This document shows, one piece after another, positions 20,708 to 63,818 of a stretch of DNA of 64,000 nucleotides (positions within the stretch are counted from its first letter, which is position 1; every line of letters begins with the position of its first letter). A model generated the notes under the pieces. It was given only the letters and a program-made list of their open reading frames with translations. It was not told the DNA's origin and did no database searches. Origin of the DNA: Nemertoderma westbladi (Eukaryota > Animalia > Xenacoelomorpha); assembly GCA_032718475.1 (NCBI GenBank), contig JAUCBJ010003840.1, positions 1-64,000 on the forward strand, in the 5' to 3' direction. The position numbers and the translations under genes are program-made.

Positions 20708-23700
20708 TTAAAAAAAGGTAAGATCTGGACTTGAGATAACATTGTAAGTAATTGTTCCTTGTTTCTTATGTTCCACTCTGTCTGTAGAATGCAACGGACA
20801 GTTTGAATAAGTCAACTTCTTGCCGAACTCACGAGTTGGGGCGATAAATACACAGCCCATAAACTGGTCGCGAACGAGATTCGAGTTCCAAACCTGGACA
20901 AACAATAAATATCGAATACCCGTAACACTTTATTTACGGTTAGGGTTCCTCTTTATTTTAATCATATTTAAGAAACTTTTAAGGTATAAGGGGGGGGGGG
21001 GGGGGGGGGGGTTATGGCTTGGAAGTCATCATTTTGAAATGCTTACTGCACCAAAAAGCGAAAGAGCGAGTAGAAAAAAAAGTGTAAGATACATTTTGGG
21101 TGGACTATATTGAATTGTAATATTACCAAAAAAAAAAATAATTTTTGACGCCACTTAGCGGCCAGAGCCAAAATTGACATTTCTGACTTAAAATGCTTCT
21201 CCTTTGTTATACTTTATTTTCAGAAGTTGTAACCTGTTTTTTTGGAATCAGCATGGCCGATCATTAACAAACCACCTCAGAGGGTAGAGGCTGGCAGAGG
21301 CCCAAGGGAGGTAGATTCATGGGGTGATATAAGCTAACCAATGGGAGGGCTGCACCTGGCGGTTTAGAGTGTTGTATCGACCAGAGGCCAATGTAATGTG
21401 ATGGCCTACTATTTTCCCTTTATATTACCGGTCACGTGCATTGTGCAATCAGTTGGCATTTATTCTGTGTAGTAGAGTTGAAATAGTTTTCCACCGCTAC
21501 GCTGTGCTATCATCACTACCGGTACACTGTATTCATCAGTCAGTTGATTAATAGTAAAGTTCACCAAAGAAACTCCTTTATTTTACCAAATCAGTCAGTC
21601 CAACCACCAGTCAGCCATTAGCCGTCGCGCACGTAGGGAACATCACCAAAGTCAAACGGTCGGGATCTCAGTCTAACCTGGATCCCGACCCACCAAGTTT
21701 TCAAAGAAGCATTGTTTTTTCGTATAAAATGTTATAACCGTTGAACAATTATAAAATTGAAAAAAATGGCTCGAATTTTATTATTGCGCACACAAGCAGC
21801 TTTCATTTGATACCAAAAACTAACAAATTGGTTGAAAAATGGTGGAGGACTTCCCGCGCAAAAACTGTCCGCGAATATGTGAGAATAATAATTGAACGAC
21901 ATACTGACTAACATAACACAAGTGTCTTTAATTCTTGTCTTTACCTTTTACTTAATAAATATGTGAAAATGTCTGTCAATATATTATATAGCAACACGAA
22001 AGCACAAAACCATGCTAAGATTTTAGCTATGGGGATTTTCCTGGTCGCTGAGATTTAATTTCTGAGGTCAGTTCTAACTTTTAATCCATGAAATCTAGTT
22101 AATCTGTTTCCTGTCTGTCGGTCTTTCTGACTATCCTACGATCTGTTCGTCAAATATAAGAAAAAAGGGCAGATCTTCTAGCTAAAGGTTTAGCTCTAGA
22201 GGTTTTTTCAGGGTCGCAGAATCCATTTCGAGTGTCAGTTTTAACATTTGCTGACTTCCGAATTGTCAGTTTGGCTGTCGGTTATATTTTACGTCTATTT
22301 TTGACGGACAGGCGGACAGGCTTACTAAGAGGAACGATGACACCAAATTTGAATATTGATATCAGGAATGAAGTCAAGGACCAAGAAAACCTATAGGAAA
22401 TTTTTTAGACATATATTGTGAATTATATTGTTTTGGAGACATACTGACGGACAGACCGACAGTAAAACGGACAGACAGCCATATTTCGAGGAGTAAGAAA
22501 GATCTTGCTAAACAGATTTCATATTTGGAATCTTGATAAAAATCTGCTCTAGATGAAATAGAAAAAAAAATTGGAAAAAACATTTGAAAGCCAGTACCTA
22601 CCCCCAACCCCCCCCCCCCCCCCCCCCCCCGTAAATGTATTATTGAATGGGTATGATGTTATGTAGACCAGTGCATCAGTAACTATCACATACAATGAAT
22701 AGTTTCACTTTCATTCCACCTTCAGTTAACCAACCTGTAAAGTAATAGGTTTATCAGGTTTCTTTCTGTAGATAATAAATGTGACCTTCCATGTTGGGTT
22801 CACTGTATTCTTTCTTACAGGGCTGCAGACTTTCTGTCCTTCACAATGAACATAGGCATAAGGGTCAGCTCCTGTAACCAATTAAACAGTATAAATTAAA
22901 TTAAACAGGTTTTTAAGAATAAATACCGGAAATATGTACCTACCTGCTCACCAACCTACATCCAGCTCACCAACCTACCTCCTGCTCACCAACCTACCTC
23001 CAGCTCACCAACCTACCTCCAGCTCACCAACCTACCCCCAGCTCACCAACCTACATCCAGCTCACCAACCTACCTCCAGCTCACCAACCTACCTCCAGCT
23101 CACCAGCCACCTCCAGCTCACCAACCTACCCCCAGCTCACCAACCTACATCCAGCTCACCAGCCTACCTCCAGCTCACCAACCTACCTTCAGCTCACCAA
23201 CCTACCTCCAGCTCACCAGCCTACCTCCAGCTCACCAACCTACCTCCAGCACACCAGCCTACCTCCAGCACACCAACCTACCTCCAGCACAGCAGCCTAC
23301 CTCCAGATCACCAACCTACCTCCAGCTCACCAGCCTACCTCCAGCTGACCAACCTACCTCCAGGTCACCAGCCTACCTCTAGCTGATCAACCTACTTCCA
23401 GCTCACCAGCCTACCACCAGCTCACCAGTCTACATCCACCTCACCAACCTACCTCCAGCTCACCAACCTACCTCCAGCTCACCAACCTACCTCCAGCTCA
23501 CCAACCTACCTCCAGCTCACCAGCCTACCTCCAGCTCACCAGCCTACCCCCAGCTCACCAGCCTACCTCCAGCTCACCAACCTACCTCCAGCTCACCAGC
23601 CAACCCCCAGCTCTCCAACCTACCTCCAGCTCACCAACCTACCTCCAGCTCACCAACCTACCTCCAACTCACCAGCCTACCTCCAGCTCACCAGCCTACC

Positions 23701-62400: not shown

Positions 62401-63818
62401 CTTGGCGACTCCGTATATCGTGTTGGGTCTCTGTACGGTGACATCTGGTGCTGGATCTCTGGGTGTTTCAGGACCGAAGGCCCCTATAGTCGATGGAATA
62501 AATATACGTATCCGATACTGCTTAGCTAACTCGATCACGTTATGTACTCCTTCAATATTGACTTTAATCGCTGTAGAAAAAAAATATTTAAAATAAATTA
62601 ACTTTTTAAGTTGGGTGAATACGTTCTTATTTTGAGATAGAGATTATATACTAATATAATACGGACATAATACAGACGGATATAATACGGACGGATATTT
62701 TTAAAATTTTAAAAATACGGTAATATTTTTGATTTTTGTTATTGGTATGTATTCTAGAACATTAGAAGATATGTTTTTTATGGTAGCTAGTGTTTTTTTA
62801 TTAGCTAGTATTTTTTTAAACTATATAAAAAATGTGAAAAAATTATATTTAGGGAGATACCATGATGTTGTGTGCATATAGAGGCCTATAACTATTTTGT
62901 AATAAATATTGTACAAACCTAAGGGGACGTCCCGTTCCCCTACTGCACTCAAGAGGGCGCTAAAGTGTATCAACCAATTAATTCGCTTGCTTACAATAAT
63001 TTCTTGAATATTCTTATAGTCCAGTATATCGCCATATCTAAATAATAAATAAGAGACATCAAAAAACGAAACAATCATAAATATGCATTTTCCGTAGCAA
63101 TATAACTAACGGCCGCGAAAAAACGATTCAAAAAAGCAATGTATATAAAGTGTTGCTTTAATGACTCCCACGGCTTCTCCCGCTAAAAACCCAATGTACT
63201 TTCAGTACACTCACCTAAAAGGTCCTTCATCTAATACTTCCTGTGTTGGCATAACAATATCGGAAAGAATTACGTTTTCTTTACCGTATTTTTCTCGTAA
63301 CAGCTTGGCTGTGCCCATACCAAGTTGGCCCAATCCTCCTGTTATCAGAATTTTTGGTTTATCGGAGCTACAATTTCGGTACTGCTGGCCGTGGTAATTC
63401 TTACCAAATGCCCTGAATGGTAACTTTATTTTATTATAAAGCATTTTTGGTTGTAATAAGATTGGAGGCAGTTACTATTAAAGTTTTCAAATGACGATAA
63501 AGTATATATTATAATAATAATACATATAAGCCACAATAAGTATTTTAACTAAATATAATTTATAAAACTAGCTATATTCTCAAGTTTATCTGATACGATA
63601 TGTCCACAAATATCGCTATGAAAACCAAATTATTTATGTTTATATAAAATAATCATCAGCAACAATATAATGATGTGTTGATCTACTCGAATGGCTGAAA
63701 ATTAACCAATTTGCAGCAACCTGAAATATAAAACAGAACGCTGAAAAGTAATCCCTAACTTAGAAACAATAAACTTCTAGAACACGTCTATCTTCCGTTT
63801 TTCAATATACCTCAACAT
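56445..63818 (-). CDS. TDH: Mitochondrial L-threonine 3-dehydrogenase (extended SDR family), 8 exons, ~351 aa
   Basis: Phase-compatible GT-AG exons 63818-63811 (ATG TTG AG), 63412-63215, 63037-62919, 62570-62382, 58176-58042, 57850-57720, 57602-57471, 56588-56445. Motifs [25 protein letters not shown] (YxxxK), [17 protein letters not shown]. The 8 nt first coding exon (MLR-AFGK, transit-peptide-like) is the least certain. Confidence 0.93.
56790..57488 (-). repeat. 46 bp minisatellite (14 extra copies) derived from the TDH exon 7 donor
   Basis: Sense unit CGATTGGACGATGAACGG|GTAAGTTCTAGAACGGATTCCTGGACAA; the real junction is at 57471/57470. Confidence 0.97.
58330..59260 (-). mobile_element. 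Decayed RTE-like LINE fragment in TDH intron 4
   Basis: [35 protein letters not shown] across broken frames. Confidence 0.8.
59563..62416 (-). repeat. 52 bp minisatellite (~54 copies) derived from the TDH exon 4 donor
   Basis: Sense unit TACGGAGTTGTCAAGGT(G/C)CACGCGGAATTACTTG|GTTGGTAGTTGGTACAGA; the real junction is at 62382/62381. Confidence 0.97.

What the first reader, a model, noticed from the sequence alone, without database searches (positions are those of the whole stretch)
22938..62416. Recurrent tandem arrays seeded exactly at 5' splice sites: exon end plus donor amplified into the intron
Seen: four minisatellites with unrelated sequences (19, 66-67, 46 and 52 bp units) in two genes share one architecture. 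Each unit is the last ~7-38 nt of the adjacent exon plus the first ~12-29 nt of the intron; the first copy is the real junction and ~100, 3, 14 and ~54 further copies follow downstream. That is 4 of ~20 donors in the window, and I saw no array that copies an acceptor-plus-exon junction. In all four, reading past the real donor hits an in-frame stop within the first unit, and the main unit lengths (19, 46, 52, 67) are all 3n+1, so use of a copy donor gives truncated protein. Inference: either a mutational process that starts tandem duplication at 5' splice sites (for example R-loops or pausing at U1-bound sites, or RNA-templated repair), or a splicing system with strict first-donor choice that tolerates, or uses, arrays of U1 sites. 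I do not know of a described system like this but could not search. A simpler explanation is that junction-spanning duplications are just the ones that survive selection.
Basis: partly seen in the sequence, partly recalled or inferred. Interest (0 to 1): 0.88.

Follow-up and report, generated by a model that had tools for sequence, protein, structure and literature searches.

The report
Four splice-donor "mirage" minisatellites
In two genes of a repeat-rich invertebrate, four short pieces spanning an exon end and its splice signal are copied 3 to 100 times into the intron; the arrangement is already known from human genes and lancelet "mirages", the one junction checked in spliced sequence uses the genuine first signal, and the repeats are likely tolerated accidents, though there are more of them than random placement predicts.

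Summary
Confirmed. Four unrelated minisatellites (19, 66-67, 46, 52 bp) begin on real donors of a calpain-5 gene and a threonine dehydrogenase gene: 4 of 18 donors, 0 of 18 acceptors. The architecture is described: human F7, CBS, 6-16, LMNB2 and PDGF VNTRs, where the first donor wins (PMC1557585), and lancelet "mirages" (PMC3087553, PMC3902484). This scan also noted it on other DNA (20 findings, at least 11 genomes; unchecked notes). One spliced contig uses the first donor of the 67-bp array; another record lacks exactly three units, suggesting length polymorphism. The other three junctions have no RNA evidence. The 3n+1 pattern is uninformative, and in the 19-bp array the stop lies in unit 2. 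What remains: 4 of 12 intronic arrays span donors against 0.46 expected (P 7e-4), 0.77 GC-matched (P 0.005) or 1.38 G-matched (P 0.03), in one hand-picked window. Survival alone cannot give an excess over random intron positions. Best reading: ordinary minisatellite birth, favoured in G-rich donor flanks of short introns and tolerated by first-donor splicing. Donor-linked seeding stays open at about 20%.

The parts
22937..24857 (-). 19-bp minisatellite, about 101 units: last 7 nt of calpain-5 exon 24978-24851 plus first 12 nt of the intron; fills the intron to 65 nt before the acceptor
   Evidence: GT intact in 98 of 98 full-length copies
35308..35575 (-). 66-67-bp minisatellite, 4 units: last 39 nt of calpain-5 exon 35726-35537 plus 27-28 nt of intron
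   Evidence: spliced contig joins at the first donor and one record lacks 3 units
56791..57488 (-). 46-bp minisatellite, 15 units plus an 8-nt partial unit: last 18 nt of TDH exon 57602-57471 plus 28 nt of intron
59562..62416 (-). 52-bp minisatellite, 55 units: last 35 nt of TDH exon 62570-62382 plus 17 nt of intron
56444..63412 (-). L-threonine 3-dehydrogenase gene, 7 coding exons in the window (63412-63215, 63037-62919, 62570-62382, 58176-58042, 57850-57720, 57602-57471, 56588-stop); the 5' edge of the first is approximate
20700..46767 (-). Calpain-5 gene, 13 exons (46767-46652, 46477-46308, 44948-44807, 35726-35537, 34371-34179, 33836-33737, 32623-32470, 29779-29584, 29440-29339, 25389-25193, 24978-24851, 22871-22735, 20893-stop)
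   Evidence: three introns bridged by one contig of run X4
26908..44602 (.). Comparison set: 7 of the 8 intronic minisatellites that do not span a junction (43771-44602, 41126-43379, 40989-41109, 35746-35864, 30086-32031, 28956-29043, 26908-27653); the eighth is 25450-25534
   Evidence: arrays make up 40% of the intron DNA of the two genes

Best explanation
These are junction-spanning minisatellites of the human F7 / lancelet 'mirage' kind, which likely arose as ordinary tandem duplications in a repeat-prone genome and likely persist because splicing keeps to the most upstream donor. A single duplication of 19-67 nt across a donor leaves the exon and a complete donor in the first copy (shown). 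The internal copy, not the real junction, was then amplified by slippage or unequal exchange (inferred from variants shared by the copies). The copies are removed with the intron (shown for the 67-bp array, inferred for the others). Donors are hit more often than random intron positions, likely because the introns are short once arrays are collapsed (16 kb for 18 donors) and because donor flanks are the GC- and G-rich sequence in which arrays tend to start; the choice of this window among very many adds to the apparent excess.
For: First unit is the real junction in 4 of 4. A contig of run X4 joins 34369 to 35535 with GT-AG ends, at the first donor. A record of run X3 bridges the 67-bp array 200 nt short, exactly 3 units. 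Copies carry bases absent from the first unit: 0 of 98, 0 of 14, 0 and 1 of 52 copies share the first unit's base, and 0 of 3 at two positions in the 67-bp array; exclusion of edge units is described for mirages (PMC3087553, section 16). Arrays fill 40% of intron DNA and 8 of 12 are nowhere near a donor. Donor flanks have GC 0.43 and G skew +0.37, against 0.36 and 0.00 for introns and 0.34 and +0.13 for acceptor flanks; 5 of 7 non-junction unit samples are richer in GC than intron background. Matching composition raises the expectation from 0.46 to 0.77-1.38. The 46-bp array ends in an 8-nt partial unit, as the short-direct-repeat birth model predicts (PMC3389668 passages).
Against: An excess remains under every null tried (P 7e-4, 0.005, 0.03), and the G-matched null is partly circular because the units are G-rich for being donor-derived. 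Tolerance cannot lift donor-spanning arrays above the neutral rate. A clear seed microhomology is seen in 1 of 4 arrays only (2 nt for the 67-mer, unclear for the others), and array-free donors have no longer repeat pairs than random intron points (4-7 nt). Three arrays outside the annotated genes carry strong donor-like 9-mers (non-junction arrays combined P=0.008 against shuffles), which this model does not explain. Donor use rests on one assembled contig of one run, and contigs drop rare forms.
Confidence: 0.62

Rival explanations
1. A co-transcriptional process at 5' splice sites (polymerase pausing, R-loops on the G-rich donor flank, U1-linked breaks) seeds the first duplication, so donors are mutational hot spots for minisatellite birth; ordinary turnover then amplifies it.
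For: 4 of 12 arrays at donors against 0.46-1.38 expected. The four units are G-skewed on the sense strand (+0.27 to +0.82), the strand bias recalled as favouring R-loops. Donor-like motifs occur in three arrays outside the annotated genes. Donor-spanning cases recur across animals in the papers read and in unchecked scan notes.
Against: One selected window. G-matching leaves P=0.03. No unit boundary falls at the cleavage site (7-39 nt exon, 12-28 nt intron), so lariat, cut exon or mRNA templates do not fit. Mirages also occur at acceptors (PMC3087553, Figure 6 legend). No paper held all six terms.
Confidence: 0.2
2. Duplications arise at exon edges by unequal exchange between divergent alleles: repair tracts start in the conserved exon and slip where intron homology breaks down; selection then removes more of the acceptor-side products.
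For: The copies of the 67-bp array share a synonymous base with the other record (X3, place 35563) and not with the window's exon, and X3 differs from the window at 23 places with 15 gaps over about 2 kb. Mirages are common in lancelets (PMC3087553), recalled as highly heterozygous.
Against: One site in one array; a CpG transition in the exon after the duplication explains it equally well. X3 lacks the second copy-specific base. No population data.
Confidence: 0.08
3. The arrays are kept by selection as U1-binding platforms (for example to block premature cleavage in long introns, or to route transcripts to nonsense-mediated decay).
For: GT is intact in 98 of 98, 14 of 14 and 52 of 52 full-length copies; in the 19-mer only 3 of 19 columns never vary and two are the GT. 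All copy donors truncate.
Against: Variant types per position in the donor 9-mer are not lower than elsewhere (13 over 27 positions against 31 over 90, P=0.29). One record has a single unit at the 67-bp site. The arrays themselves are what make these introns long.
Confidence: 0.06
4. The arrays are assembly artefacts.
For: No long reads were seen; one record crosses the 67-bp site with a single unit; copy numbers are unverified.
Against: Units carry many patterned variants (95-99% identity to consensus) and fixed differences from the exon, which mis-assembly of a unique junction would not create. Contigs of runs X1 and X2, which match the window, end at the array edges (35347, 35530); this is a weak hint, and X1 may be the window's own source.
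Confidence: 0.04

Closest known systems
Lancelet 'mirage' minisatellites (Adh3, globins BflGb6/BflGb9, troponin C, PGBD5). PMC3087553: section 16 read whole, plus passages. PMC3902484: passages. The original Adh3 paper (Canestro 2002) was seen only as cited.
   Same: Tandem repeats spanning exon-intron boundaries in a marine invertebrate, units of 10-160 bp, many loci, more than one per gene (PGBD5 has two), normal splicing, length differences between haplotypes, edge units excluded from homogenisation, origin stated as unclear.
   Different: The animal here is not close to lancelets (SAC1 51%, TDH 61% identity to Branchiostoma proteins). Two arrays are much longer (55 and 101 units). All four are on the donor side, whereas mirages occur at both ends.
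Human donor-spanning VNTRs: F7 intron 7 (37 bp x 5-9), CBS intron 13, interferon-inducible 6-16, LMNB2, PDGF. PMC1557585: abstract, Introduction, Discussion and passages read.
   Same: First monomer spans the exon-intron boundary; identical pseudo-donors follow; the most upstream donor is used (exclusively in F7, LMNB2, PDGF); copy number is polymorphic.
   Different: Human cases are scattered single loci; here 4 of 18 donors in two adjacent genes. In 6-16 and CBS two copy donors are also used; that could not be excluded here.
Minisatellite birth at short direct repeats (Haber and Louis; Taylor and Breden), as summarised in PMC3389668 (passages)
   Same: The 46-bp array ends in an incomplete 8-nt unit, as the model predicts.
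   Different: Not evident for the other three arrays.
Intron gain by tandem duplication of AG/GT proto-splice sites (Rogers), as cited in PMC3087553
   Same: Tandem duplication that includes splice signals.
   Different: Here the units include intron sequence and sit in introns with their own unique 3' part and acceptor; no new intron is made.

Membership tests
Mirage / F7-type junction-spanning minisatellite | Terminal unit spans a true exon-intron boundary | tested here: met
   4 of 4; gene models and homolog alignment
Mirage / F7-type junction-spanning minisatellite | Further tandem copies lie in the intron and keep the splice signal | tested here: met
   GT intact in 98 of 98, 14 of 14, 52 of 52 full-length copies and 3 of 3
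Mirage / F7-type junction-spanning minisatellite | The authentic site is used in the mRNA | tested here: met
   Only for the 67-bp array, one contig of run X4; for the other three arrays there is only the protein-homology argument
Mirage / F7-type junction-spanning minisatellite | Copy number varies between haplotypes | tested here: inconclusive
   One record of run X3 is 200 nt (3 units) short at the 67-bp array; it could be an allele, a near-identical duplicate or an assembly simplification; other arrays not examined
Mirage / F7-type junction-spanning minisatellite | Edge unit excluded from homogenisation of the internal copies | tested here: met
   First unit differs from all or nearly all copies in 4 of 4 arrays
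Mirage / F7-type junction-spanning minisatellite | Somatic instability (reported for lancelet Adh3) | not testable with these tools
   Needs single-molecule typing of tissues
Intron gain by tandem duplication (Rogers model) | Unit is exon-derived with AG/GT and the intron consists of the repeats | tested here: not met
   Units include 12-28 nt of intron, and 65-1385 nt of unique intron lie before each acceptor
   Window only: P 7e-4 to 0.03 against intron positions, not significant against acceptors; no whole genome available

The most novel reading that the evidence does not exclude
In this animal 5' splice sites are mutational hot spots for minisatellite birth: co-transcriptional events at the donor seed a junction-spanning duplication, and strict first-donor splicing lets it expand, so that a fifth of donors carry one and splicing itself drives intron growth. 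This would give the 'mirage' repeats, whose origin is stated to be unclear, a mechanism and a genome in which to test it.
Probability: 0.2. Interest if true: 0.7.

Novelty: new member of a known kind. Interest (0 to 1): 0.3.

Why it matters
As single loci these repeats are known curiosities. The value lies in the density: 4 of 18 donors, with up to 100 identical or stronger donor copies, in an animal with no close relative among the proteins searched. If that holds genome-wide, it offers hundreds of natural tests of first-donor choice outside mammals and a way to decide whether mirages come from a splicing-linked mutational bias or from base composition plus tolerance. I found no genome-wide donor/acceptor/random comparison in the open library searched; subscription journals are mostly not covered. 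In practice such arrays mislead gene predictors and break short-read assemblies at exon ends.

Tried and rejected
No whole genome is held for this window, so the decisive genome-wide count could not be run. No RNA holder was listed among the 6 runs found; run X4, listed as 'DNA?', bridged three introns when laid. Unit length mod 3 and early stops: rejected as uninformative. Templating from lariat, cut exon or mRNA: rejected, no unit edge at the cleavage site. Repeated copying from the real junction: rejected. Dispersed repeat family: the four units have no match elsewhere in the window. Richer microhomology at donors in general: not found, 14 array-free donors 4-7 nt, like 500 random intron points. 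Conservation of the donor 9-mer in copies: not significant. Rfam at gathering thresholds: 0 matches in the window. An open frame of 26 codons beside the 16-bp donor-like array (52169-52246) has no Pfam match. Earlier notes for this genome and look-alike stretches: none. PMC10078293 (12 of 16 passages seen) and PMC12783039 (passages) did not address junction-spanning arrays. The original Adh3 mirage paper is not held, and no supplements were read; either may bear on how many mirages per gene were already reported and at which end.

Full report
The window is animal genomic DNA. Its intronless SAC1 is at best 53% identical to hemichordate and priapulid proteins among 7,993 candidates scored, so no close relative is in the protein collection. 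No whole genome is held. Two minus-strand genes carry the finding: an L-threonine 3-dehydrogenase (TDH; 7 coding exons in the window) and a calpain-5 (13 exons), 18 introns in all. Spliced at the proposed sites they give single open frames of 348 and 669 aa, 62% identical without gaps over 312 aa and 49% identical over 648 columns to hemichordate proteins.

Observation. The units are 7+12, 39+28, 18+28 and 35+17 nt of exon plus intron, in about 101, 4, 15 and 55 units, and the first unit is the real junction. No array spans any of the 18 acceptors, although one ends 19 nt and one 60 nt before an acceptor. Every copy donor truncates the protein in silico. The 3n+1 pattern has a probability of about 0.04 after the fact, and 2 of the 4 units of one array are 66 nt.

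Reads. Six runs were listed and four were laid on 32100-40900. One contig of run X4 bridges three calpain introns with GT-AG ends; the joint 34369-35535 is the first donor of the 67-bp array. This is one assembled contig, so minor use of copy donors is not excluded. One record of run X3, differing from the window at 23 places with 15 gaps, crosses the same site 200 nt short, exactly three units. That suggests a single-unit haplotype, but a duplicate copy or an assembly simplification cannot be excluded; seven exonic differences would change three residues. Contigs of X1 and X2 end at the array edges, a weak hint only, and X1 may be the window's source. The 19-, 46- and 52-bp junctions have no read evidence.

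History of the arrays. In all four, the internal copies share bases that the real junction lacks: 0 of 98, 0 of 14, and 0 and 1 of 52 copies carry the first unit's base, and 0 of 3 at two positions in the 67-mer. So one founding duplicate was amplified, and the junction was not copied again and again. No unit edge falls at the cleavage site, which argues against lariat, cut-exon or mRNA templates (inference). The 46-mer ends in an 8-nt partial unit, the mark of birth at a short direct repeat (model as summarised in PMC3389668, passages); the others show 2 nt or nothing clear. GT is intact in all full-length copies, but the donor 9-mer is not less variable than the rest (P=0.29).

Chance. Arrays fill 40% of the intron DNA of these genes; collapsed, the 18 introns hold 16 kb. 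Of 12 intronic minisatellites (period >=10, score >=100) 4 span a donor against 0.46 expected, P=7e-4. Donor flanks are richer in GC and G than introns or acceptor flanks, and 5 of 7 non-junction unit samples exceed intron GC. Matching GC gives 0.77 expected (P=0.005), matching G gives 1.38 (P=0.03), the latter partly circular. Donors against acceptors, 4:0, is not significant. These values come from one window picked because it shows the pattern, so they overstate the case. Against my reading, 12 non-junction units together carry better donor-like motifs than shuffles (P=0.008), driven by three arrays outside the annotated genes.

What is known. Borensztajn et al. (PMC1557585; abstract, Introduction, Discussion, passages) list donor-spanning minisatellites in human F7, 6-16, CBS, LMNB2 and PDGF and show with 50 constructs that the most upstream functional donor is chosen. 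Ebner et al. (PMC3087553; section 16 and passages) describe lancelet 'mirages' at both kinds of boundary, length-variable between haplotypes, harmless to splicing, of unclear origin. PMC3902484 (passages) adds two in one lancelet gene. The original Adh3 paper was not available. Eight searches showed no genome-wide test of donor enrichment in the open library. Unchecked scan notes record 20 similar findings in at least 11 genomes, including acceptor-side arrays and one case where the last donor is used; I had found both key papers before seeing these.

Verdict. A real, dense example of a known kind. Most likely (0.62) ordinary minisatellite birth biased to G-rich donor flanks in short introns and tolerated through first-donor splicing; donor-linked co-transcriptional seeding 0.2; inter-allelic exchange at exon edges 0.08; functional U1 arrays 0.06; artefact 0.04. 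Interest 0.3, resting on the unexplained residual excess and the simple genome-wide test that would settle it.

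Noticed in passing
window 38338-40134 (+): Complete intronless SAC1 phosphatase ORF (598 aa, PF02383) nested antisense in the 9-kb calpain-5 intron; a 2360-nt contig of run X4 covers 38384-40743. 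Likely a functional retrogene; whether an intron-bearing parent survives is unknown.
   Followed up: partly
window 52101-52168 (-) and 52229-55695 (+): Two arrays with strong donor-like 9-mers face away from an 80-nt unique segment: a 16-mer x 4 starting at a GT (P=0.004 against shuffles) and a 26-mer x 134 (P=0.03). Could mark unannotated exon ends; no RNA evidence, no Pfam match.
   Followed up: partly
window 18174-20109 (+): 45-bp x 43 array beyond the calpain 3' end with a donor-like 9-mer on the plus strand (P=0.07); no exon identified.
   Followed up: partly
window 43612-43679 (-): Hammerhead-ribozyme-like sequence with an intact-looking core between the two blocks of the 30/60-bp array in the calpain intron (RF02275, E=1e-4, 26.6 bits, below the gathering score of 52).
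   Followed up: partly
window 29505-29569 and 25130-25190 (-): A 4-mer microsatellite starts 15 nt after the donor at 29584, and long G runs follow the donor at 25193: donor flanks here are repeat-prone even without junction copies.
   Followed up: no
window 35746-35864 and 25450-25534 (-): Two short arrays (40 x 3, 18 x 4.7) end 19 and 60 nt before acceptors without including the AG.
   Followed up: no
window 50254-51702 (+), 4747-7682 (+), 58425-59197 (-): LINE-type reverse transcriptase ORF (PF00078), a duplicated gypsy-like integrase fragment (PF00665, PF17921) and a degenerate RT-like remnant in a TDH intron with no Pfam match.
   Followed up: partly
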